The notes beneath the pieces were generated by a model. It saw nothing but the letters and a program-made list of their open reading frames with translations. It was not told where the DNA came from and did not search any database. A program made the position numbers and the translations under genes. This document shows, in pieces, positions 1,841-21,072 of a DNA stretch of 21,072 nt (position 1 is the stretch's first letter; every line of letters begins with the position of its first letter). The DNA comes from a virus (lineage: Duplodnaviria > Heunggongvirae > Uroviricota > Caudoviricetes), in the IMG/VR virus record IMGVR_UViG_2648501437_000019, positions 1 to 21,072 of that record, one strand, 5' to 3'.

Positions 1841-1976
1841 CAGGGAAAAGGCTGCATCCCGCTACAGAAACGGCTGGGTTGCCTTCGGGGAACGGCTGGA
1901 GGTTTTCAGGGAAACGGTCGAGTTGCCTGTGTGGATTTCGGGAAAAGGCTCGATGCCGGTTCAGGAACGGTGGCGT
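1841..1976. repeat. iteron-like array, six degenerate direct repeats of GGRAAMGG-CTG with 21-23 bp spacing
   Basis: CAGGGAAAAGGCTGCAT 1841-1857; AGAAACGGCTGGG 1866-1878; CGGGGAACGGCTGGA 1886-1900; CAGGGAAACGGTCGA 1907-1921; CGGGAAAAGGCTCGA 1939-1953; CAGGAACGGTGGCG 1962-1975. The AACGG/AAAGG cores sit at 1847, 1868, 1891, 1913, 1945 and 1966. Confidence 0.6.
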
Positions 1977-4491: not shown

Positions 4492-4974
4492 ATGAATTTT
4501 ATCGCTACTGTAAACGCACCCGCACATGGCAATATCGCTGTAACGTTCTCTGACATTGAAAAACGAGTACTTGGTGCATGGCGCGACAATGAGACGGTAG
4601 AACTGTCAGCACAAGAAAAATGCATTATTGCACGCGACATCATTGGCAATCGTCGTTACTCGCGGGTATTTGAGAAAGCGTATGTGGTAAATTCTGGATT
4701 CGGAACGTTCGTCTTTCCGGTGCGCTCCGGGCGATTCTGCCAGTCCAAGCTGATTGAGTTCGCTACGCAGATTTCTGTCTGGATTAAAACTCAATCGTCG
4801 TTCAAATTTTCCGACGATGAAGCAGTATCGCAGGGGATGCGGATCGCCAACAATGCAATTAAATGCAAAAACATTACGTATACCGCTGGCGTTGATACAT
4901 GGAAACTGTTTTGCGCTAACTTTATGCTGAATGTATACGCAAGCAACCGCATCCACATCCTTGATGGCGTGTAA
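4492..4974 (+). CDS. hypothetical protein (160 aa)
   Basis: ATG at 4492 with AAGGAATTAATC-ATG SD; followed by a hairpin. Confidence 0.65.
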   Translation: MNFIATVNAPAHGNIAVTFSDIEKRVLGAWRDNETVELSAQEKCIIARDIIGNRRYSRVFEKAYVVNSGFGTFVFPVRSGRFCQSKLIEFATQISVWIKTQSSFKFSDDEAVSQGMRIANNAIKCKNITYTAGVDTWKLFCANFMLNVYASNRIHILDGV

Positions 4975-4982
4975 CTGAGAAG

Positions 4983-5008
4983 AGGGCCAGAAACGGCCCT
5001 TTCTCTAT
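4983..5008 (+). terminator. putative intrinsic terminator
   Basis: AGGGCC (4983-4988), loop AGAAAC, GGCCCT (4995-5000), then TTCTCTAT. The 13-mer TTTCTCTATAGCC after it also follows the 2672-2690 hairpin (2693-2705). Confidence 0.5.
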
Positions 5009-5023
5009 AGCCACCAGCTGCCG

Positions 5024-5105
5024 CAGGGAAATTTTCAGAAGCGGCGAGGAACGTATTCATGAGCCGACGGGGAACGGCCAGGATTTTTTCGGGAAACGGC
5101 TGCAT
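5024..5105. repeat. second iteron-like array, same repeat family as 1841-1976
   Basis: CAGGGAAATTTT 5024-5035; CGAGGAACGTATT 5045-5057; CGGGGAACGGCCA 5068-5080; CGGGAAACGGCTGCAT 5090-5105. Cores about 21-24 bp apart. Confidence 0.55.
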
Positions 5106-5230
5106 TTGCCTTTGTGTAGAAAAAAACATCGGGAAGCTGGTGGAATCCAACCAGCGGTTGTCGGACAGGTGAGCGGGGAAAATTATGATGACTTTCGTCA
5201 CCTGAGACATCCAGATTTCTTTCGTAGCAT

Positions 5231-5273
5231 AATCACATACGTGATTAAGTGGTGTGATTATGTGAAAAATCAC
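5231..5273. promoter_or_regulatory. operator-like cluster of AATCAC/GTGATT half-sites
   Basis: AATCAC-ATAC-GTGATT palindrome at 5231-5246; further half-sites GTGATT at 5254-5259 and AATCAC at 5268-5273. Confidence 0.4.
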
Positions 5274-5504
5274 GCGCACATAATACGCGAGCGGATACGG
5301 AACAAAACAAAATGCCGATCCGCGCCGACAAATAAACGCGGATCATAAAGCAAGACTAAAAGCCAATGATTAACTATGCGCTATAACGCGTTTTAAGCGC
5401 GTTAATGTGTTAAGTAATGGGTATGTACTGGCAAGGATATAAAAGCGCGTCTATGGCGTTATTTTGGCGCTTATTTTTATGTTGTTGGAGTGAGTTAAAG
5501 ACAA

Positions 5505-5530
5505 TAAAAAACGCGCCATCAATGGCGCGT
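5505..5530 (-). terminator. intrinsic terminator, minus strand
   Basis: GC-rich palindrome ACGCGCCAT/ATGGCGCGT (5511-5530) preceded on the plus strand by AAAAAA, which is a U-run after the hairpin on the minus strand. Confidence 0.55.
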
Positions 5531-5551
5531 TATTGTGGAAGTATTGGAAAC

Positions 5552-5576
5552 GAAAAAAGCGCCCATAGTGGGCGCT
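5552..5576 (-). terminator. intrinsic terminator, minus strand (possibly bidirectional)
   Basis: AGCGCCCA-TAG-TGGGCGCT (5558-5576), flanked by AAAAAA on the plus-strand 5' side and CGATTTTATTTG on the 3' side. Lies just downstream of the stop at 5582 on the minus strand. Confidence 0.6.
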
Positions 5577-5581
5577 CGATT

Positions 5582-5812
5582 TTATTTGTGTAAACTGATT
5601 TTAAATCCCATTTCTACGAACGCTTTTAACATTAAAAATATATCAGCGTCGTTCACGTCTGCTTTTTTTCGCTCCTGGTCGCTCAATAAGTCAATTTTGC
5701 GCGTCGTTTCATCTATAAGCTCGACTACGCGCCCAGCGTAACCAGCGATCCCAGCGATGCGATTAACATAATATTCATTATGGACGTTAACGCCAGCGAT
5801 AAGAACAAACAT
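5582..5812 (-). CDS. small hypothetical protein (76 aa)
   Basis: ATG at 5812 preceded on the minus strand by AAGGAG 8 nt upstream; terminator downstream. Confidence 0.55.
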   Translation of the reverse strand: MFVLIAGVNVHNEYYVNRIAGIAGYAGRVVELIDETTRKIDLLSDQERKKADVNDADIFLMLKAFVEMGFKISLHK

Positions 5813-5832
5813 GATTAAGCTCCTTAAAAAAA

Positions 5833-6036
5833 TTAAATAGAATTTTGAAGTTTTCCGATTAATGCGCTTAAACGTAAGTATTCACGTTTGCGCTTGCAAT
5901 CTCGCTTGCTGTTAAGCAAATCAGAAAACGTAAAATTTAATTGGTCGCGTTGCGCGATTAAATCATCGATTAATTCTAGTTTATAAGCGCGATACTTTGC
6001 GCGATATTCCGCGCGGATCTTGTCATAGCTGACCAT
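5833..6036 (-). CDS. small basic hypothetical protein (67 aa)
   Basis: ATG at 6036 preceded by AAAGGAG about 9 nt upstream on the minus strand. Confidence 0.55.
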   Translation of the reverse strand: MVSYDKIRAEYRAKYRAYKLELIDDLIAQRDQLNFTFSDLLNSKRDCKRKREYLRLSALIGKLQNSI

Positions 6037-6054
6037 TTTTCAAAGCTCCTTTAA

Positions 6055-6073
6055 AGCGCCCATAGTGGGCGCT
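6055..6073. repeat. second exact copy of the 19-bp palindrome AGCGCCCATAGTGGGCGCT
   Basis: Identical to 5558-5576; with flanks about 25 bp match with one mismatch. Confidence 0.55.
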
Positions 6074-6085
6074 TGATTCCATTAA

Positions 6086-6736
6086 TTACGCTTTGAAAGC
6101 ATCAGCTAAATAATTGTAGAAATCATTTTTAATGAAGCGATATTGCTGAGTACCAGCTTTTGCACTCCCAGCTCCTTTGACTTTTTCAACAAGTCCAAGA
6201 CGTTCGCAAAGATTGATCAACTGGTTGGCTTGAGTATAGCCAGCGTCCAATTTAATTTCACACGCTTTTTTAGCTTCATTCATTAAATCGAAAACAGCGC
6301 CATTGGTGAACGTGTCGATCTCGTCGTTAATCATATCGATTAAAGCGAATACACGAGATCCTGACATATCAGCGACGGAATAAACACATTTACCAGCTTT
6401 AATGGATTTAACCAGATAAACCAGTTTTTCCAGTGAATAACTATTAGTCATTGCATCACGGAAAAATACTTCTGGCGCTTGTTTGCTTGCTTTAATCGCA
6501 TAGTAGAAAACAGAGCATAATTTTTCGTCTTCTACTGCGTTTACGACGTTGTTGATGAAGTAAGCAAGTTTAGTGGTCGCAGCTTGCATATTTGCTTTGT
6601 CTGCTTTAGTGTGCGTACCATTTTTATAATGTTCGTTATATGTTTGAGTTGCCAGATCTGCTTTTTCGCGCAGCTCGTCGGATACAATAGATGCAGCTTC
6701 AATGATGGACTTTTTAGAAATGATAATGTTAGCCAT
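6086..6736 (-). CDS. hypothetical protein (216 aa)
   Basis: ATG at 6736 (MANIIISKK...) with AAGGA SD 7 nt upstream on the minus strand; the listed ORF start at 6811 lacks an SD. Confidence 0.65.
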   Translation of the reverse strand: MANIIISKKSIIEAASIVSDELREKADLATQTYNEHYKNGTHTKADKANMQAATTKLAYFINNVVNAVEDEKLCSVFYYAIKASKQAPEVFFRDAMTNSYSLEKLVYLVKSIKAGKCVYSVADMSGSRVFALIDMINDEIDTFTNGAVFDLMNEAKKACEIKLDAGYTQANQLINLCERLGLVEKVKGAGSAKAGTQQYRFIKNDFYNYLADAFKA

Positions 6737-6984
6737 GATAATATCCTTACGAAAAATTAAAATGAATTTATTTTTTACTGTCGTTAGCCAGCTCGCTTTC
6801 GACGAGTTCAATTATCGATACGTGAAAAAAGATTGCAAGTGTTTTTTTAAATTTTTTGCAGGGGTGAAAGCCCTAGAAATAAAAGAGAGAGCGTCGAAGG
6901 TGTTCCCTAAATAAATAATCAATTCGGGCCTTTAACCTTATATATTTATACGGGGTGGCATTGAAAGAGTTTTAAATGAATGGC

Positions 6985-7017
6985 ATGTAAAATAATAACC
7001 GGACTTAGCCGGTTATT
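6985..7017 (-). terminator. putative terminator, minus strand
   Basis: AATAACCGG (6994-7002), loop ACTTAG, CCGGTTATT (7009-7017), followed on the minus strand by an A/U-rich stretch. Confidence 0.4.
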
Positions 7018-7029
7018 ACCCTTATAGAT

Positions 7030-7554
7030 TTAAAATGGAAGGATTCGTTCAACCCAATCGAAGAAAACAAGTATTTTTCTGCCGTCTTCTAACTTAAGAG
7101 TGACCTGGCAAGCATCAACGCCTCTTGACACCCCTTCAATTTCACGACCGTCTGCCATGTAGACCCTTATAGATTGGTCGTTTTGATAAGCCTTGCGACA
7201 TATCGCAAAAAAGTCACGGCGTGATGGCTGATTGTCAACATAGTCTGGATGTATTGTTAGCCTACCTTTGAACTCGCGAGCAATGCCATCGATTACACCT
7301 GATTCAATTGTGCTAATGCGCTCAAGTGGGAGTCTTATACGATTTTCTTTATCATATGGAAGCGGGCATAAATCTAGCTTATTGCGGGAAGGCATTGTCC
7401 CCTGAACGTACATGCAAAACACCTGACCGTCTTCAAGCGTGACTCTTACAGGAATGTTGTTCTTCCGCCAGAACATAAGTATGTTTTCAGCATGTTCGTA
7501 GTCTCGCGGCCAGACTTCAGCCGGTATGCCGTAGGTGATGTCCGATGTTCTCAT
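7030..7554 (-). CDS. hypothetical cytoplasmic protein (174 aa)
   Basis: The start ATG overlaps the upstream stop (ATGA at 7551-7554), so it is translationally coupled. Confidence 0.6.
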   Translation of the reverse strand: MRTSDITYGIPAEVWPRDYEHAENILMFWRKNNIPVRVTLEDGQVFCMYVQGTMPSRNKLDLCPLPYDKENRIRLPLERISTIESGVIDGIAREFKGRLTIHPDYVDNQPSRRDFFAICRKAYQNDQSIRVYMADGREIEGVSRGVDACQVTLKLEDGRKILVFFDWVERILPF

Positions 7555-8150
7555 TCTGATACTCTTAGAGGTGTTTTCAGCAACCCAAATTTAAATTCTT
7601 TGTTACCAACGACAAAGAAGGGAACCTCAACATAGATTTTTTTATCGACGGATTTAGAGTTCGCTGTTTTCTGTATGTCACGAACGATACGTTTTGAGGT
7701 ATTTTCATCGATAAACAATACCTTTCCACTTGTATTCCCTTCAGCCTTGGCGTAAGTAACGATAGGGTCTTCATTGCCAACCCTAATGTTTACTTGGCAA
7801 CCTGTTGTAGCCATTTCATCACAGTAAAGTGTGCCGTCTTGAACTTCTAAAACAATTCCAGATGGCTTCATGGCTTCGTCAGAGCTTACATTAACGTTTT
7901 CTGGTACAGCGGTCCCGTTAATTTGCAACCGTAATCTTTCTTTTCCTCCATTAAGTATTGTTTCTTCTGCGTTGTCTGAGAATCTGAACCAAACTGGCTG
8001 ATTCAGACCTCGTGATTTGTATTCTACTACATCTTCGGAGGTAAACATGCTGTACGTTTTTTGCATGTCAGAGGCGAAATCTGATAATGCGTTGGCGGAA
8101 AACGCCGGGAGGCATATACAAGCAAGGAGTAACGAAAGTTTCATTTTCAT
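7551..8150 (-). CDS. hypothetical secreted protein with N-terminal signal peptide (about 199 aa precursor)
   Basis: MKMKLSLLLACICLPAFSANA-LSD: basic n-region, hydrophobic core, AxA-type cleavage motif (ANA). The listed start at 8165 is TTG, so ATG 8150 is preferred. Confidence 0.6.
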   Translation of the reverse strand: MKMKLSLLLACICLPAFSANALSDFASDMQKTYSMFTSEDVVEYKSRGLNQPVWFRFSDNAEETILNGGKERLRLQINGTAVPENVNVSSDEAMKPSGIVLEVQDGTLYCDEMATTGCQVNIRVGNEDPIVTYAKAEGNTSGKVLFIDENTSKRIVRDIQKTANSKSVDKKIYVEVPFFVVGNKEFKFGLLKTPLRVSE

Positions 8151-8165
8151 ATCATGATAATCCAA

Positions 8166-8654
8166 TTATTTAACATCACACTTTCTAAGTTTTTCTATTT
8201 GTTCTAATTTTTCATGATCATCATTTAGATTTCCTTCGACTATCTCCGTTTCAAGTTTGCTGATTAGCATGTTAAGTGCGTTGTAGTTATTGCATTTTAC
8301 TTTGTAGGCGTAGTATGACCTTGTCCCTGGTTTTTGTACACCCATATCATTAAAGTTAGAGCTTAAAGTATAACCTTCAAGTTCAACCCCTTTTATTGTT
8401 GGAAGAATTATATTTAATGGTTCTAATTTAAATGGGTAGATATAAATATGTGATATGAAGTACTCTTCTGAAGAGATTTTCTTCATGTCTTTTGTGATTG
8501 AAACTGAATATTTACGGTTCCGAGTGATATAAAATTTTGTGCATCTGTACAGCTCTAAGTTGAATAGATAATATTTGTCTTTAAAAAGAACATCTTTTCC
8601 ATGTGATATTTTATGTCGTAAAGAGTTAATTATTTTGTTTATGGAAATACTCAT
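8166..8654 (-). CDS. hypothetical protein (162 aa), strongly AT-rich gene
   Basis: ORF with G+C about 23-30% in hand-counted 60-nt stretches; K/N/I/Y-rich product. Stop lies 15 nt upstream of the next start. Confidence 0.55.
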   Translation of the reverse strand: MSISINKIINSLRHKISHGKDVLFKDKYYLFNLELYRCTKFYITRNRKYSVSITKDMKKISSEEYFISHIYIYPFKLEPLNIILPTIKGVELEGYTLSSNFNDMGVQKPGTRSYYAYKVKCNNYNALNMLISKLETEIVEGNLNDDHEKLEQIEKLRKCDVK

Positions 8655-8763
8655 CTACAGTATCCGACCTTAGTTATCAATTGAAAAGCCTACAAATATC
8701 GTTCTGCCAATCAAGAAATTTTTTCAGCCGGAGGTGTGTACTTCAAAAAATGTGATGGATGTC

Positions 8764-8793
8764 ACATGCAGGTGCTCTCATACACCTGCATGT
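8764..8793 (-). terminator. terminator-like hairpin
   Basis: 11-bp perfect stem ACATGCAGGTG (8764-8774), 8-nt loop, CACCTGCATGT (8783-8793), 7 nt downstream of the stop at 8800; the U-run is displaced by about 17 nt. Confidence 0.35.
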
Positions 8794-8799
8794 AGACTA

Positions 8800-9366
8800 T
8801 TAATCATTCAATAATCTATATTTTCTTTTGATTAAATCTTCACCTTTTTTGGTGAACACAAAACCAAATTGCGATTTTTTGTTCAGCCTCAGTACTCTGT
8901 TATCCAACGCATCGGTTGATGGAATCAATGTTTGATCATCTATCCAATTAAGTAGCGTAAGAAAGTTCAGCAGCCTCAACGTTGTTGTGCGAAGCTCTTT
9001 CGATATATTTTCAATGCTGGCAATTCGTCTTTCTTTTTTCTCAGGTGGTACAGATAATTGTTCTTGAGGTTTCGTGGATAGATAATCAATTTCGTTTGCT
9101 GCATCGAATGATATGTGTGGCGTAATTTTGCTAAAAAAGCCTTTCGCTGACTCACTTGATAATAAACCAGACCTATTCATATCGTTTGTTATTCTGTACA
9201 GGAGTGGACTGTGTTTCATTTCAGGATAACGTTGATAAAAGTTAAGCAATTCAAAAGCAGCATTAGCACCAACAATAAAATCAGAAGGATCGCTGACTTT
9301 CCAGAAAGAATGATTTTTCTTAGCGCCAGTGGTGTCAACAAATGATAATTCTTTTAACCAACTCAT
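8800..9366 (-). CDS. hypothetical protein (188 aa)
   Basis: ATG at 9366 (MSWLKEL...) with AAAGGAG SD; the upstream in-frame ATGs at 9399 and 9396 lack an SD. Confidence 0.6.
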   Translation of the reverse strand: MSWLKELSFVDTTGAKKNHSFWKVSDPSDFIVGANAAFELLNFYQRYPEMKHSPLLYRITNDMNRSGLLSSESAKGFFSKITPHISFDAANEIDYLSTKPQEQLSVPPEKKERRIASIENISKELRTTTLRLLNFLTLLNWIDDQTLIPSTDALDNRVLRLNKKSQFGFVFTKKGEDLIKRKYRLLND

Positions 9367-9399
9367 GATGTGCTCCTTTCTAACAAGTGAGCACATCAT
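9365..9399 (-). promoter_or_regulatory. hairpin sequestering the SD and start codon of the 8800-9366 gene
   Basis: Perfect 11-bp inverted repeat ATGATGTGCTC (9365-9375) and GAGCACATCAT (9389-9399) with a 13-nt loop. On the mRNA the SD spans the loop/3'-arm junction and the ATG overlaps the end of the 3' arm. Confidence 0.45.
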
Positions 9400-9431
9400 A
9401 GAATTAGTAGATAGGGGGTAAATATAAAATG

Positions 9432-9710
9432 TTACGGCAACCTGCTCAGTATTTCCTCTAAATCTTTTTTTGTCATATTGGAGTTTTCATAGATGCGCAT
9501 GATTTTCTCACGCGTCTTAGCGGAAACCCCAACGGCAGATGTGACTTTGTCAAATTCAGCCATAGTCATCGTCTCCAGAATGGCATTGATAACTTCAGCC
9601 TTAGACATCTTGATTTTTTTCTCTTTGAGTTTTATTTGGAATTTTCCAAGTTTTTCATTGGCCTTATCAGACAATGCCACTTGGCAATAAGTTGTTTTCT
9701 TTTCGCTCAT
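9432..9710 (-). CDS. small hypothetical protein (92 aa)
   Basis: ATG 2 nt after the helicase stop codon; lysine-rich. No confident motif. Confidence 0.55.
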   Translation of the reverse strand: MSEKKTTYCQVALSDKANEKLGKFQIKLKEKKIKMSKAEVINAILETMTMAEFDKVTSAVGVSAKTREKIMRIYENSNMTKKDLEEILSRLP

Positions 9711-9712
9711 AA

Positions 9713-11272
9713 CTAATCTCGTTTCAGAACTCCAAAATCGAATGCGCCATCAATAGGCAATACACCTTCCGCAAAGCCAGGTGTGGTGTCGATGATGTGT
9801 TTTCGCTCATAAGAGTGAGACAACAGGTATTTGTTGCTAATGTCAATGAAATCAGTGATAAAACACACGTTTGCCTGATTCTTCTTGGCTCGTAAGCCAC
9901 GACCGACACGTTGTCTCATTTCAACTTCTGCTTTCCCACCACCAGCAAGAATGACCGCACCAACGCTTGGCACATCAACACCGACATCCAGAATAGTCGA
10001 GCCTATTAAAACATCTATTTCGCCAGACGCTAAACTGTTCAGCTTTGCTTGTCTTGTCGCCTGGTTCGATTCCCCATAGATAAAGTCAACTCTAAGGCCT
10101 GACTCCTTCATCATCTCCATCAGGATTTGCCCGTGGCGTTTAAGACGAACTAGAGTCATACAATTGAGAGAATGTTGCTTATAGAGCAATGCCTCGCGCA
10201 CTATGGCCTCGTTACGTCCCAAATTATACACGATCCCCAACTGATAAGCCTTTTGGTAGGCGGTGCTCATACCAACTCTAAAATTGAGGTGTTTGTTGGC
10301 AAGTTCGGCCTTGATTCTGGCCTCGTCTGGCTTGTAGGCAACTTTATGATAAAGGAAGTACGGCTTTGCCAGAATGCCTCGATCAATCAGGTACTTTTCT
10401 GTGACTTTAATTTCAATTCGCCCGGCCACCGCCATCAGACGCATGTTGGCTTCCGTCGAATCCTTCATGAACGGCGTGGCCGTAAGCGCCAGACGATAGT
10501 CTGCGTTCACACATAATCTGGCAATGTCATAGAAATTAGAACCTGAAGACTCATGCGCCTCTTCCAGAATAAGCAGAGACACACTTGAAAGGAAGCGTTT
10601 CACCAAGTCCCGACGTTTGAGGTGGTAGCTCTTCTTATCTGGAGTTGCATCGCGTGGTGGTTCTTCAAGGAAACTTGCCAGAGTTTGAACTGTAGCGACG
10701 TTGATATGTCGTGATACCTGGAACTCACCCGAGCCAATGACTCCAACCTTTTGGTCTTTTAACCACGGTTCGCCATTTTTGGCGCGGTAGTCGATGGATC
10801 TCTGGAAGTTTTCGGCCATTTGAAACATCAGAACAGAGCGGGTTGTTAAAAATAATGTCATTCGACCGATACGTGCAGCTGCTTTACAGGCAACGTTAGA
10901 TTTCCCGCCACCAGTAGCGATTTGCGCAATCATCATTCCCTCTCGAACTAGTGTTTCCACAGTCTGATCCTGATACGCATAATCAGGATTGTATGGGAAT
11001 GGGTTAACCGCCGGATTTGGTTTACCAAGCGCCGGGGCTTTGTCTTTGCGGATATGAACACATCTGATGCCCGCCTTGTTCAAGTTCGCCGCTACAGGCT
11101 TGGCAAAGCCAGCAGGGAACGAGTTTTTACTCCAGTTGAACATCGTGCTTGTGCCCTTCCAGTCGCCAGTCTCGACTTCGTAGCTCAACATTTGCTGCAC
11201 CAGTTGCTTTACCTTGTCATCTGCGCCAGAAATAAGCGCATTTACTGCGTTAGATACAATCCGAACAGTCAT
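9713..11272 (-). CDS. superfamily-2 DEAD/DEAH-box-type helicase (519 aa)
   Basis: Motif I ATGGGKS, motif II LILEEAH, motif III LTATP, motif VI QRVGRGLR; strong SD AAGGAAAGAGG upstream of the ATG at 11272. Confidence 0.85.
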   Translation of the reverse strand: MTVRIVSNAVNALISGADDKVKQLVQQMLSYEVETGDWKGTSTMFNWSKNSFPAGFAKPVAANLNKAGIRCVHIRKDKAPALGKPNPAVNPFPYNPDYAYQDQTVETLVREGMMIAQIATGGGKSNVACKAAARIGRMTLFLTTRSVLMFQMAENFQRSIDYRAKNGEPWLKDQKVGVIGSGEFQVSRHINVATVQTLASFLEEPPRDATPDKKSYHLKRRDLVKRFLSSVSLLILEEAHESSGSNFYDIARLCVNADYRLALTATPFMKDSTEANMRLMAVAGRIEIKVTEKYLIDRGILAKPYFLYHKVAYKPDEARIKAELANKHLNFRVGMSTAYQKAYQLGIVYNLGRNEAIVREALLYKQHSLNCMTLVRLKRHGQILMEMMKESGLRVDFIYGESNQATRQAKLNSLASGEIDVLIGSTILDVGVDVPSVGAVILAGGGKAEVEMRQRVGRGLRAKKNQANVCFITDFIDISNKYLLSHSYERKHIIDTTPGFAEGVLPIDGAFDFGVLKRD

Positions 11273-11354
11273 AAACCTCTTTCCTTAGTGCCTTTTGTAT
11301 GTTATTTGGCTATTATAATAAGTAAGTGATTACTTAGTGGATTGTAGCAATAAA
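11273..11354. promoter_or_regulatory. divergent promoter region between the helicase and the late plus-strand operon
   Basis: 82-bp spacer with TATAAT at 11314-11319 and the palindrome AAGTAA-GTGA-TTACTT at 11321-11336. Confidence 0.4.
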
Positions 11355-14261: not shown

Positions 14262-14528
14262 ATGACGTTAACCGATAAACAAAAGGACATCATCAAAACG
14301 CTCAATCTCGGTTATGAGCGAGGTCATCTACTTGACCTGGACGAATTGCTTGAAGTTTTGCCGTACAAGACAACCAAGCAAAGTATCCAGTTCTCAATTC
14401 GCGCTCTGATAAAAAAGGGGCTGGTGGAGAAAGGGCATACGCGCCAACGCAGTGACAATCGCTATCACCGCCGAACTCTTGGGTTAACCACTTTAGGTCG
14501 AGCCAAAGCGAAGTTACTGGTGATGTAA
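14262..14528 (+). CDS. small winged-helix-like DNA-binding protein (88 aa)
   Basis: AAGGA SD 6 nt upstream of the ATG; helix-turn-helix-like segment QSIQFSIRALIKKGLVEKG followed by a basic tail. Confidence 0.5.
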   Translation: MTLTDKQKDIIKTLNLGYERGHLLDLDELLEVLPYKTTKQSIQFSIRALIKKGLVEKGHTRQRSDNRYHRRTLGLTTLGRAKAKLLVM

Positions 14529-14561: not shown

Positions 14562-14599
14562 GTATATATAAATAATAAGTAACTTATTAAATATATACG
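14562..14599. promoter_or_regulatory. AT-rich imperfect palindrome of about 38 bp upstream of terS
   Basis: GTATATATAAATAATAAGT-A-ACTTATTAAATATATAC. Followed by direct repeats AAACAAGTTG (14647-14657, 14671-14681) and a hairpin AGAGCGC/GCGCTCT (14685-14704) with a T-run. Confidence 0.45.

Positions 14600-20588: not shown

Positions 20589-21072
<484 letters not shown>

What the first reader, a model, noticed from the sequence alone, without database searches (positions are those of the whole stretch)
5231..5273. Operator-like cluster of four AATCAC/GTGATT half-sites in the central gene-free hub
The palindrome AATCAC-N4-GTGATT plus two further half-sites within 43 bp sits between the convergent left plus-strand and minus-strand blocks, near the second iteron array. 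This resembles a repressor operator array, but no repressor-like gene is evident nearby. The small proteins at 5582-6036 or the 14262-14528 winged-helix protein are candidates.
Basis: seen in the sequence. Interest (0 to 1): 0.4.

Follow-up and report, generated by a model that had tools for sequence, protein, structure and literature searches.

The report
Repeated ATCAC motif in phage-plasmid hub
Four copies of a short DNA word sit in a conserved gene-free stretch of an SSU5-like E. coli phage-plasmid; they are real and not chance, and probably bind a protein, but only one copy is conserved across the family and nothing shows a repressor acts there.

Summary
AATCAC/GTGATT occurs at 5231, 5241, 5254 and 5268. 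It is the only hexamer clustered like this in the window (0 of 200 shuffles) and in a near-identical 109-kb plasmid.

The window is an SSU5/pHCM2/pMT1-type phage-plasmid. The cluster lies in a 607-bp non-coding hub (4975-5581) that is flanked by terminators and conserved family-wide.

Only a core, TGTGAT (usually TATGTGATTATG), is shared across the family. The four-site layout belongs to the main E. coli lineage (204 of 239 E. coli plasmids). It looks like an inverted duplication of that core.

Other lineages carry 2-6 ATCAC copies at different spacings, and a divergent group has a different repeat in the same slot. I found no conserved RNA fold, no ORF and no Rfam match.

Best reading (about 0.35): the sites bind an unidentified DNA-binding protein in a control hub and overlap weak -10-like hexamers.

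The proposed binders are not supported:
- The 88-aa protein is a true winged helix, but it lies 9 kb away beside its own palindrome.
- The 67-aa gene is absent from phage Cyrano, which has the identical cluster.
- The 76-aa model is uninformative.

Rivals are an origin-type site, RNA hairpins, or a neutral quasi-palindrome. Interest is modest.

The parts
5231..5236 (+). Half-site 1, AATCAC (context CATAATCACATAC)
   Evidence: Part of the inverted copy of the ancestral 12-mer. Mutated without compensation in two natural variants, L023 (AATCGC) and L049 (AATTAC).
5241..5246 (-). Half-site 2, GTGATT on the + strand (AATCAC on the - strand; context CTTAATCACGTAT)
   Evidence: Specific to the window's E. 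coli lineage, type A.
5254..5259 (-). Half-site 3, GTGATT on the + strand. This is the only copy conserved across the family.
   Evidence: TGTGAT is present at this position in types A-F.
5268..5273 (+). Half-site 4, AATCAC (context AAAAATCACGCGC)
   Evidence: An AAATCAC is present in type B with different spacing. It is degenerate (AACCAC, AGCCAC, ACCCAC) in type C.
5230..5247 (.). Perfect 18-bp palindrome TAATCAC-ATAC-GTGATTA
   Evidence: unique in the 109-kb plasmid. The spacer varies (ATAC or ATAT) among close relatives.
5253..5266 (+). Conserved core TGTGATTATGTGAA. The ancestral form is TATGTGATTATGTGAA.
5228..5239 (-). Inverted duplicate of the ancestral 12-mer; it reads TATGTGATTATG exactly on the - strand
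   Evidence: exact match on the minus strand at plasmid position 29523; pairwise alignments show a 26-nt insertion relative to type B.
5252..5275 (.). Everted pair GTGATT-N8-AATCAC, which could form a second hairpin or cruciform
   Evidence: The 53-nt cluster folds into two hairpins: -16.4 kcal/mol, z = -3.0 on the + strand; -12.3 kcal/mol, z = -2.2 on the - strand.
4975..5581 (.). Conserved non-coding hub between convergent transcription units, present in all SSU5/pHCM2/pMT1 relatives examined
   Evidence: No conserved ORF (indels; no Pfam match for the 80-aa ORF). No Rfam hit reaching a gathering score.
5037..5104 (+). GGGAAACGGC-type repeats about 22 bp apart, paralogous to the array at 1843-1975
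5011..5018 (-). Chi octamer on the - strand (CCACCAGC on the + strand)
   Evidence: (inverted repeat I19)
5136..5143 (+). Chi octamer GCTGGTGG
   Evidence: It sits at non-orthologous positions in types A, B/C and F.
4984..5006 (+). Terminator-like hairpin GGGCC-AGAAAC-GGCCC followed by TTTCTCT, ending the + strand operon
   Evidence: sequence; conserved; alifold signal
5510..5577 (-). Two tandem - strand intrinsic terminators (5577-5557 and 5531-5510)
   Evidence: structure conservation index, SCI, 0.7-0.9
5273..5345 (-). Two further - strand terminator-like hairpins (5345-5316 and 5289-5273). The U-tract of the second overlaps half-site 4.
   Evidence: 5345-5316: -17.4 kcal/mol, z = -3.9; 5289-5273: z = -1.7, not significant. 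These occur only in E. coli-type right flanks.

Best explanation
The four half-sites are copies of one short recognition element. Its core is ATCAC/GTGAT with flanking purines; the family-wide form is TGTGAT, usually TATGTGATTATG. The element sits in a variable 'slot' of a conserved, terminator-flanked, Chi-bracketed non-coding hub of SSU5-type phage-plasmids. In the dominant E. coli lineage, a 26-nt inverted duplication plus two deletions multiplied the single ancestral element into four copies. This created one perfect 18-bp palindrome and one everted pair.

The most likely function is a cluster of DNA binding sites for a sequence-specific protein that has not been identified. That protein could be encoded by the phage-plasmid or by the host. 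The copies overlap -10-like hexamers: CATAAT at 5228-5233 on the + strand, CATAAT at 5262-5257 on the - strand, and TGTGATTAT at 5253-5261. A protein bound there would therefore occlude transcription starting inside the hub, which is operator-like behaviour.

Shown: the repeat structure, its uniqueness, its evolutionary origin, and the motif enrichment.
Inferred: protein binding, promoter overlap, and any regulatory output.
For: - The cluster is non-random and unique.
- The core is retained through three independent divergences of its flanks, in types A, D and E, and TGTGAT persists even in type F.
- ATCAC/GTGAT is enriched in the hub against dinucleotide shuffles in several lineages: A, 4 vs 0.8, P = 0.004; C, 3 vs 0.64, P = 0.024; D, 6 vs 0.73, P < 0.002. 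The extra copies in A and D are lineage-specific, lie in both orientations and include non-palindromic placements. An RNA stem would not require that.
- A divergent group carries a different short repeat (CTTTAACGCTAAATGG, 1-2 copies) in the same slot. That is the pattern expected of a specificity determinant.
- No conserved RNA fold, no ORF and no Rfam match reaching a gathering score are found.
- Promoter-like hexamers overlap the sites.
- The type A segment is stable in 204 of 239 E. coli plasmids of this family.
Against: - No binder is identified.
- The two pairs have different geometry (inverted with N4, everted with N8), and copy spacing varies between lineages. That does not fit a rigid dimeric repressor.
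- Within the E. coli clade the cluster is no more conserved than the rest of the hub: 6 segregating sites in 49 bp, with 30% of equal-sized windows doing as well; half-sites 2/24 against spacers 3/19.
- Two natural variants carry half-site mutations.
- Promoter-like matches are not above chance, and the position-weight-matrix (PWM) scores are low (5.8-9.4).
- In B/C lineages the whole ~50-bp block around the 12-mer is equally conserved, so the 12-mer does not stand out there.
- The lineages are related, so the enrichment tests are not independent.
- An inverted duplication can arise by template switching, without selection.
Confidence: 0.35

Rival explanations
1. The hub is a DNA-transaction site, such as a lytic replication origin, an incompatibility or copy-control locus, or another initiator-loading site. 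On this reading the ATCAC elements are binding sites for an initiator or a DnaA-like protein, not operators.
For: - The hub is a mosaic of short repeat families: GGGAAACGGC repeats in about 22-bp phase with a paralogous second array, the ATCAC elements, and ACGCGCTAAAAC repeats of about 11-12 bp whose copy number varies and which carry phased A-tracts.
- A conserved outward-facing Chi pair brackets the first repeat family.
- The hub is non-coding yet conserved in 779 plasmids.
- TGTGATTAT matches the DnaA-box consensus TGTGNAWAA at 7 of 9 positions (from the sequence and general knowledge).
Against: - The known plasmid origin is elsewhere, the RepFIB origin at plasmid 104-106 kb, with unrelated iterons ACCGCTGACAGCATAC.
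- No initiator gene lies beside the hub, and neighbouring proteins have no Pfam or NCBIfam domains.
- The detrended cumulative GC-skew minimum is at plasmid 35.6 kb (window about 11.3 kb), not at the hub.
- There is no long AT-rich unwinding element.
- A 7/9 DnaA-box match is weak.
Confidence: 0.2
2. The cluster acts at the RNA level. The two palindromes would form stem-loops in a hub-encoded non-coding transcript, or in read-through RNA, serving as 5' stabilising hairpins, a processing site or a terminator.
For: - The 53-nt cluster folds into two hairpins, -16.4 kcal/mol with z = -3.0 on the + strand.
- GTGATT...AATCAC pairs with loops of 3, 8 or 17 nt occur in types D, A and B.
- On the - strand, hairpin 5289-5273 is followed by UGAUUUUU, which overlaps half-site 4.
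- A family-conserved - strand -10-like hexamer TAT(T/C/G)AT at 5285-5280 would start a transcript at the cluster (11 of 12 representatives).
Against: - No conserved structure or covariation is seen in 5040-5500 on either strand (SCI about 0, covariation term -0.21).
- The stem partner is mismatched in the most widespread type C. G-U compatibility points to opposite strands in types C and E (sequences; pairing assessed by eye).
- Natural half-site mutations are not compensated.
- There is no Rfam match reaching a gathering score.
- The Y. pestis RNA-seq catalogue lists no sRNA between these genes on pMT1 (PMC3770706, Table S1).
- The - strand promoter candidate has a 19-bp spacer and a poor -35.
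Confidence: 0.15
3. The four-site pattern is a neutral by-product. A template-switch or inverted-duplication event in a recombination-prone spacer copied a pre-existing 12-mer, and the extra copies have no function.
For: - The - strand 12-mer at 5228-5239 is an exact inverted copy of the ancestral TATGTGATTATG.
- Type A differs from type B by one 26-nt insertion and two deletions.
- The central cassette is exchanged by recombination: Ec_91H1 has type-A flanks with a type-B/C centre. Chi sites bracket the adjacent region.
- Within-clade diversity in the cluster equals the hub average.
- Three of the four sites are absent from other lineages.
Against: - Sites 2 and 4 are not part of the simple inverted copy, yet they also carry the hexamer.
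- Extra ATCAC copies were gained independently in L055.
- The type A form is fixed in about 85% of E. coli members of the family, and the hexamers are rarely disrupted.
Confidence: 0.2
4. One reading: an operator array bound by the small proteins at 5582-6036, or by the winged-helix protein at 14262-14528.
For: - The 88-aa protein is a bona fide winged helix-turn-helix (wHTH): pLDDT 82; Foldseek matches to MarR and MepR with TM 0.70-0.77.
- The 76-aa gene is the hub's immediate neighbour and is restricted to this family.
Against: - The wHTH gene is 9 kb away, just upstream of the terminase genes, and has its own AT-rich inverted repeat at 14562-14598.
- The 67-aa gene is absent from Cyrano, which has the identical cluster.
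- The gene next to the hub varies (231, 228 or 204 nt) without tracking the slot type.
- The 76-aa model has pLDDT 48, and the protein has no PDB, Pfam or NCBIfam match.
Confidence: 0.05

Closest known systems
Lambdoid cI/Cro operators (half-site TATCAC, 17-bp dyads in OR/OL arrays)
   Same: The ATCAC...GTGAT half-site letters are shared. There are several copies within about 45 bp, and they overlap -10-like hexamers.
   Different: - The dyad spacing is N4, against N5 in lambda.
- Only one true dyad is present.
- No repressor gene is transcribed divergently from the site.
- The copies are not conserved in relatives.
- The site sits between convergent operons, not at an early-promoter switch.
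The resemblance is recalled from memory and was tested only for geometry.
Dispersed or multipartite cis sites of phage-plasmids (P1 C1 operators; P1/P7 immI specificity sequences; N15 dispersed centromere sites)
   Same: Both involve short lineage-specific sequence elements in non-coding DNA of a phage-plasmid, and the specificity appears to differ between related elements.
   Different: The cluster is a single locus, not dispersed. No cognate protein or RNA is known. The GGTAAG-N2-CTTACC palindrome next to the HTH regulator gene is the better candidate for a dispersed operator in this element.
Iteron/DnaA-box architecture of plasmid and phage origins (lambda ori, P1 oriR, RepFIB)
   Same: Phased direct repeats (~22 bp), further short repeats, inverted repeats and a DnaA-box-like 9-mer all lie in one non-coding block.
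   Different: The element's RepFIB origin and iterons are elsewhere and unrelated. There is no adjacent initiator gene, no clear unwinding element, and no GC-skew extremum at the hub.
CRP/FNR-family sites
   Same: ATGTGAT/ATCACAT is a perfect CRP half-site.
   Different: No pair has the defining TGTGA-N6-TCACA (or TGA-N6-TCA) geometry. The pairs present are everted, or have 4-, 7- or 12-nt spacing (from the sequence).

Membership tests
Repressor operator array (lambda-type OR/OL) | Two or more sites with the same dyad geometry | tested here: not met
   One inverted dyad, AATCAC-N4-GTGATT (5231-5246), and one everted pair, GTGATT-N8-AATCAC (5254-5273). Searching the N4 dyad with up to 3 mismatches finds no second site in the cluster. 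The would-be partners of sites 3 and 4 match at 3/6 and 0/6 positions (from the sequence).
Repressor operator array (lambda-type OR/OL) | Overlap with a functional promoter | tested here: inconclusive
   -10-like hexamers overlap the sites. The region has 2 consensus promoter matches against 3.0 expected in shuffles. No transcription-start data exist.
Repressor operator array (lambda-type OR/OL) | A cognate DNA-binding regulator encoded nearby or co-varying with the sites | tested here: not met
   Neighbouring ORFs have no DNA-binding domain. The FljA-like gene at 7030-7554 belongs to a family known to act on fliC mRNA (PF03614; mode of action from general knowledge). The CI-type HTH gene at plasmid 87.4 kb has a different palindrome. 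The neighbouring gene variant does not track the slot type.
Repressor operator array (lambda-type OR/OL) | Conservation of the sites in relatives | tested here: not met
   Only site 3 (TGTGAT) is family-wide. Sites 1 and 2 are confined to type A, and site 4 to types A and B.
Repressor operator array (lambda-type OR/OL) | Protein binding and repression | not testable with these tools
   Needs EMSA or footprinting, and reporter assays.
CRP binding site | TGTGA-N6-TCACA inverted repeat | tested here: not met
   Read from the sequence: TCACA-N3-GTGAT (everted), TGTGA-N4-TCACG, and TGTGA-N7-TCACT (in L055).
DnaA box | 9-mer TTATNCACA (TGTGNATAA) with at most 1 mismatch for a strong box | tested here: not met
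   TGTGATTAT matches the relaxed consensus at 7/9 positions. The 12/14 similarity to the RepFIB-origin sequence TGTGGATATGTGAA is at chance level, about 0.7 expected.
RepFIB/P1-type iterons | Match to the element's own iteron, ACCGCTGACAGCATAC | tested here: not met
   searches show no resemblance to AATCAC or to GGGAAACGGC.
Intrinsic terminator | GC-rich hairpin immediately followed by a U-tract, conserved | tested here: inconclusive
   The - strand hairpin 5289-5273 with UGAUUUUU was found by scan, but z = -1.7 and it is absent from type B/C hubs. The two cluster hairpins have no U-tract.
Structured non-coding RNA (any Rfam family or a new one) | Match to a curated model, or a conserved fold with covariation | tested here: not met
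   Rfam: only two sub-threshold hits elsewhere. Sliding alifold over 21 representatives gives SCI about 0 across 5040-5500. The alifold covariation term is -0.21.
Chi site (context feature) | Exact GCTGGTGG octamer | tested here: met
   5136-5143 on the + strand and 5011-5018 on the - strand. Both are present in 36 of 52 unique hubs. Activity with RecBCD was not tested.

The most novel reading that the evidence does not exclude
The hub as a whole, not the four half-sites alone, is a previously undescribed cis-acting control locus of SSU5-type phage-plasmids. It comprises Chi-bracketed GGGAAACGGC repeats, a hypervariable slot filled with lineage-specific short repeats (ATCAC-type in most lineages, CTTTAACGCTAAATGG in others), and phased ACGCGCTAAAAC repeats. 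It could be the lytic-cycle origin, or an incompatibility/superinfection-specificity determinant. On this reading the slot repeats set which initiator or regulator allele is recognised.
Probability: 0.15. Interest if true: 0.55.

Novelty: new member of a known kind. Interest (0 to 1): 0.3.

Why it matters
SSU5/pHCM2/pMT1-type phage-plasmids are common in E. coli, Klebsiella, Salmonella and Yersinia pestis. They carry resistance genes, yet their regulatory and replication cis-elements are essentially unmapped.

A conserved 600-bp non-coding hub with several repeat families and a lineage-variable slot is an obvious place to look for the lytic origin, an immunity or incompatibility determinant, or a regulatory RNA. 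If the ATCAC cluster is a protein site, it offers a handle (a pull-down probe) for finding that regulator.

On present evidence the cluster itself is a modest feature, largely specific to one lineage.

Tried and rejected
1. Same motif elsewhere in the element. None was found in the 109-kb plasmid, so this is not a dispersed operator.
2. RepFIB iterons or a DnaA box as relatives of the motif. They are unrelated, or similar only at chance level.
3. Conserved RNA structure. Sliding RNAalifold on 21 representatives, both strands, and fold_alignment on 15 sequences found only the flanking terminators. Hairpin covariations I noticed by eye near 5190-5200 and in the type C GTGGGTAAACCAC were not picked up and were not pursued.
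4. Rfam. No match reached a gathering score.
5. Published transcript evidence. The Y. pestis RNA-seq catalogue lists three pMT1 sRNAs (sR082, sR083, sR103). sR082 and sR083 map near ymt and an IS element; none is listed between the hub's flanking genes. The LF82/Cyrano paper names CYRAN_45 as the putative repressor, a gene number well before those that match the window (CYRAN_100 onward). A 2026 preprint on PhiR41_1-type heteroresistance could not be opened.
6. fliC 5'-UTR mimicry for the FljA-like protein. The 12-mer TGAGCCGACGGG is shared with the window's hub, but the local alignment gives P = 0.047 in the window and is not significant in other lineages. Rejected.
7. SSU5_116, a 'putative repressor-like protein' about 700 bp left of the hub in SSU5. 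It has no homologue in the window or in the E. coli plasmid.
8. CRP, FNR, IHF, Fur, NrdR, XerCD/dif and MntR boxes, compared from memory. None fits the geometry. The MntR-like ATAGC-TTTC-GCTAT repeat exists only in types B/C, and its right arm varies.
9. Within-clade purifying selection on the half-sites. There is no signal.
10. Targets elsewhere in the plasmid for the conserved hub blocks. None were found.
11. GC skew as an origin indicator. The extremum is at window about 11.3 kb, not at the hub.
12. Structure of the 76-aa neighbour. Confidence was too low to use.

Full report
**What the window is.** The region around the finding is 95-97% identical to Escherichia phages CMS-2020a, PhiR41_1 and Cyrano, and more distantly related to Salmonella phage SSU5. 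In PLSDB, 779 plasmids match the 607-bp gene-free gap. They include Y. pestis pMT1, S. Typhi pHCM2 and many Klebsiella and Enterobacter plasmids, nearly all IncFIB and non-mobilizable. In complete E. coli genomes the gap is found on 239 plasmids and never on a chromosome. The window is therefore part of an SSU5/pHCM2/pMT1-type phage-plasmid.

The gene layout follows from ORFs, Pfam/PHROGs and the annotation of relatives:
- A + strand block of small unknown genes ends at 4974.
- A - strand block runs from 5582 to 11272. It includes an FljA-like gene (PF03614, E = 5e-81, 7030-7554) and a DEAD-box helicase.
- From 11337 a + strand block follows, with two ParB_N proteins, an ATPase, a small 88-aa protein, then terminase, portal and capsid genes.

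**The observation.** The hexamer is not enriched in the window as a whole (18 hits against 14.4 expected). The clustering is exceptional, though. No other hexamer has four non-overlapping copies in 43 bp, and none of 200 dinucleotide shuffles produced any such cluster. In the complete 109,442-bp plasmid NZ_CP031136.1, which is 99.7% identical across the gap, the cluster and its 18-bp palindrome TAATCAC-ATAC-GTGATTA are unique.

**The setting: a conserved non-coding hub.** Every relative examined has a 580-640-bp gap between the conserved 160-aa gene (+) and a small - strand gene. The gap aligns across genera with 81% mean column identity. It has no conserved ORF, because indels break the frames and the 80-aa ORF has no Pfam match. 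No Rfam family reaches threshold. The hub is bounded by:
- a + strand terminator-like hairpin at 4984-5006;
- two strong, conserved - strand terminators at 5577-5557 and 5531-5510.

The E. coli-type right flank adds two more - strand terminator-like hairpins, at 5345-5316 and 5289-5273.

The left part carries GGGAAACGGC repeats about 22 bp apart (5037-5104). The only other array of this motif in the whole plasmid is at window 1843-1975, with six copies in 22-bp phase. The two arrays share about 50 bp of paralogous sequence. They are unrelated to the RepFIB iterons ACCGCTGACAGCATAC that flank the rep gene at plasmid 104-106 kb.

**Comparative anatomy of the cluster.** I collected 52 distinct hub sequences, from annotated plasmids and phages plus 56 IMG/VR loci. 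Six loci from GTDB species genomes were examined afterwards. The segment between the conserved blocks CCAGAT..CTTTCG and ATACGCGAGCG comes in discrete types:
- Type A, the window's lineage, has all four hexamers.
- Type B (for example Ec_91H1) has GTGATT-N17-AATCAC.
- Type C (Klebsiella, Enterobacter, pMT1, pHCM2 and SSU5 itself) has only the first GTGATT. Its partner is AACCAC, AGCCAC or ACCCAC.
- L055 has GTGATT-ATG-AATCAC.
- L036 has GTGATT...AATTAC.
- Type F has only TGTGATC.
- A more divergent group (L015, L017, L027, L065) lacks the motif. In the same slot it carries one or two tandem copies of CT(T/A)TAACGCTAAATGG and a CTGGATAGCCAG palindrome.

The common denominator is TGTGAT, usually TATGTGATTATG. 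Pairwise alignments show that type A equals type B plus a 26-nt insertion and two deletions. The inserted piece contains, on the minus strand, an exact copy of the ancestral 12-mer TATGTGATTATG (5228-5239). The four-site pattern is therefore largely an inverted duplication of a pre-existing element.

Ec_91H1 has type-A-like flanks with a type-B/C centre, so the central ~250 bp behaves as an exchangeable cassette. Type A is the dominant E. coli form: the 61-nt segment is at least 95% identical in 204 plasmids and identical in 67.

**Is there selection on the sites?** Within 21 distinct type A hubs, the cluster has 6 segregating sites in 49 bp, against a hub average of 17%. Thirty percent of equal-sized windows do as well. 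Half-sites (2/24) and spacers (3/19) do not differ, and two variants carry uncompensated half-site-1 mutations. Close relatives therefore give no evidence either way.

Across lineages the picture is more suggestive. The pentamer ATCAC/GTGAT is enriched in the hub relative to dinucleotide shuffles:
- type A: 4 against 0.8, P = 0.004;
- type C: 3 against 0.64, P = 0.024 (the extra two are GATCACG copies 26 bp apart, further right);
- L055: 6 against 0.73, P < 0.002.

Types B, E and F show weaker trends. The extra copies in A and L055 are lineage-specific, occur in both orientations, and share flanking purines (R-ATCAC-R). These tests are not independent because the sequences are related. In types B/C the whole ~50-bp block around the 12-mer is equally conserved.

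**RNA or DNA?** The cluster can fold into two hairpins: -16.4 kcal/mol with z = -3.0 on the + strand, and -12.3 with z = -2.2 on the - strand. That follows trivially from the palindromes. Sliding RNAalifold on 21 representatives found conserved structure only at the three flanking terminators, and SCI was about 0 everywhere between 5040 and 5500 on both strands. A focused alignment of 15 sequences gave a covariation term of -0.21. The GTGATT/AATCAC stem partner is mismatched in the commonest type. Where wobble pairs would rescue it, they point to opposite strands in types C and E. The published Y. pestis sRNA catalogue has no entry between these genes on pMT1. I therefore rank an RNA role below a DNA role.

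**Promoters.** The simple scan finds GAGACA-18-CATAAT ending at 5233, overlapping site 1. However, the region has no more promoter-like matches than shuffles do. A PWM scan of 12 representatives gave three candidates:
- a - strand -10, TAT(T/C/G)AT, at 5285-5280 with a TTG-type -35 at 19 bp, the best family-conserved candidate (11 of 12 representatives); it would start transcription at the cluster;
- TGTGATTAT (5253-5261), which reads as an extended -10 on the + strand;
- its complement CATAAT, which reads as a -10 on the - strand.

All scores are modest (5.8-9.4). Overlap of the sites with initiation signals is plausible but unproven.

**Candidate binders.**
- The 88-aa protein (14262-14528) is predicted with pLDDT 82 as helix-helix-helix-wing-helix. 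The gene lies 9 kb away, immediately upstream of the terminase genes and beside its own AT-rich inverted repeat at 14562-14598.
- The 67-aa gene (5833-6036) is absent from Cyrano, whose cluster is identical.
- The 76-aa neighbour is restricted to this family. It has no Pfam, NCBIfam or PDB match, and its model is unusable at pLDDT 48.
- The element's CI-type HTH regulator (plasmid 87365-87751) has a different palindrome, GGTAAG-TG-CTTACC, beside its gene. Near-copies lie at or just upstream of several gene starts, and none is in the hub.
- SSU5's 'repressor-like' SSU5_116 has no homologue here.
- The FljA-like protein belongs to a family that acts on fliC mRNA (general knowledge). A test for fliC-leader mimicry in the hub was negative.

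The best-supported account is that the four sites are copies of a short recognition element, multiplied in one lineage by inverted duplication, within the variable slot of a conserved non-coding control hub. They most likely bind an unidentified sequence-specific DNA-binding protein and overlap weak initiation signals (confidence about 0.35).

The rivals, with my confidence in each, are:
- a replication-origin or other DNA-transaction site (0.2). This is suggested by the several phased repeat families and the Chi pair, but weakened by the absence of an adjacent initiator gene and by the GC-skew minimum lying at window about 11.3 kb;
- RNA hairpins (0.15);
- a neutral quasi-palindrome (0.2);

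No experiment or transcript map exists for this locus in the literature I could reach.

Noticed in passing
window 5011-5018 (- strand) and 5136-5143 (+ strand): Two exact Chi octamers face outward and bracket the GGGAAACGGC repeats. Both are kept in 36 of 52 distinct hubs. The + strand copy lies at non-orthologous positions in types A, B/C and F, which suggests its presence is selected rather than its position. The whole plasmid has 21 Chi sites in 109 kb, against about 3 expected.
   Followed up: partly
window 1843-1975 and 5037-5104: These are the only two arrays of GGGAAACGGC-type repeats in the 109-kb element. Both lie on the + strand in about 22-bp phase, each just downstream of a + strand terminator-like hairpin, and they share about 50 bp of paralogous sequence. 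They are unrelated to the RepFIB iterons. The binder and function are unknown.
   Followed up: partly
window 5376-5406; L074, L077 and L078 right halves of the hub: A third repeat family, ACGCGCTAAAAC, occurs in tandem with a period of about 11-12 bp. Copy number varies between relatives: about 2 in pMT1, 3 in Kluyvera and 5 in Buttiauxella. The A-tracts in helical phase suggest bent DNA.
   Followed up: no
L015, L017, L027, L065 (IMG/VR), at the slot homologous to window 5226-5276: A divergent hub group replaces the ATCAC elements with one or two tandem copies of CT(T/A)TAACGCTAAATGG plus a CTGGATAGCCAG palindrome. The flanking GGGAAACGGC repeat and the AGCGCCCACGGA block are kept.
   Followed up: partly
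plasmid NZ_CP031136.1 position 87783 (L012: 37783), and near-copies at 2322, 11873, 14086, 18137, 41138, 67872: A perfect palindrome GGTAAG-TG-CTTACC lies next to the HTH regulator/integrase pair. Copies with 1-2 mismatches lie at or just upstream of the starts of several genes or gene blocks (nrdA, the methyltransferase and others). This may be a dispersed operator or promoter motif of the element's master regulator.
   Followed up: no
window 7030-7554 (- strand): A full-length FljA-like 'repressor of phase-1 flagellin' (PF03614, E = 5e-81) is conserved in SSU5, pMT1 and E. coli members. It may let the phage-plasmid shut off host flagellin.
   Followed up: partly
window 14262-14528 and 14562-14598: An 88-aa MarR-like winged-helix protein lies immediately upstream of the terminase genes. 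It is followed by an AT-rich imperfect inverted repeat (GTATATAT...ATATATAC), a candidate late-gene or packaging control site.
   Followed up: partly
window ~1260-1680: About 400 bp is strongly A+C-rich and G+T-poor on the + strand, with no convincing ORF. It lies in a stretch left unannotated in the RefSeq plasmid (plasmid 24691-26275). The three AATCAC hits here (1335, 1405, 1535) are explained by this composition.
   Followed up: no
L003 (E. coli pEHP91H1-1) against the window: This plasmid is a mosaic. Its hub flanks are nearly identical to the window, but the central ~250 bp is of the Klebsiella/Enterobacter type. The hub centre is therefore exchanged by recombination as a cassette.
   Followed up: partly
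window 20594-21010 (- strand): A truncated rve-family integrase/transposase ORF (an IS fragment) is inserted after the Ig-like domain gene in the structural module.
   Followed up: no
window 11272-11337: The detrended cumulative GC-skew minimum of the whole plasmid falls at the divergence between the helicase (-) block and the ParB-like (+) block (plasmid ~35.6 kb). If skew means anything here, this is a better candidate than the hub for a replication or transcription divergence point.
   Followed up: no
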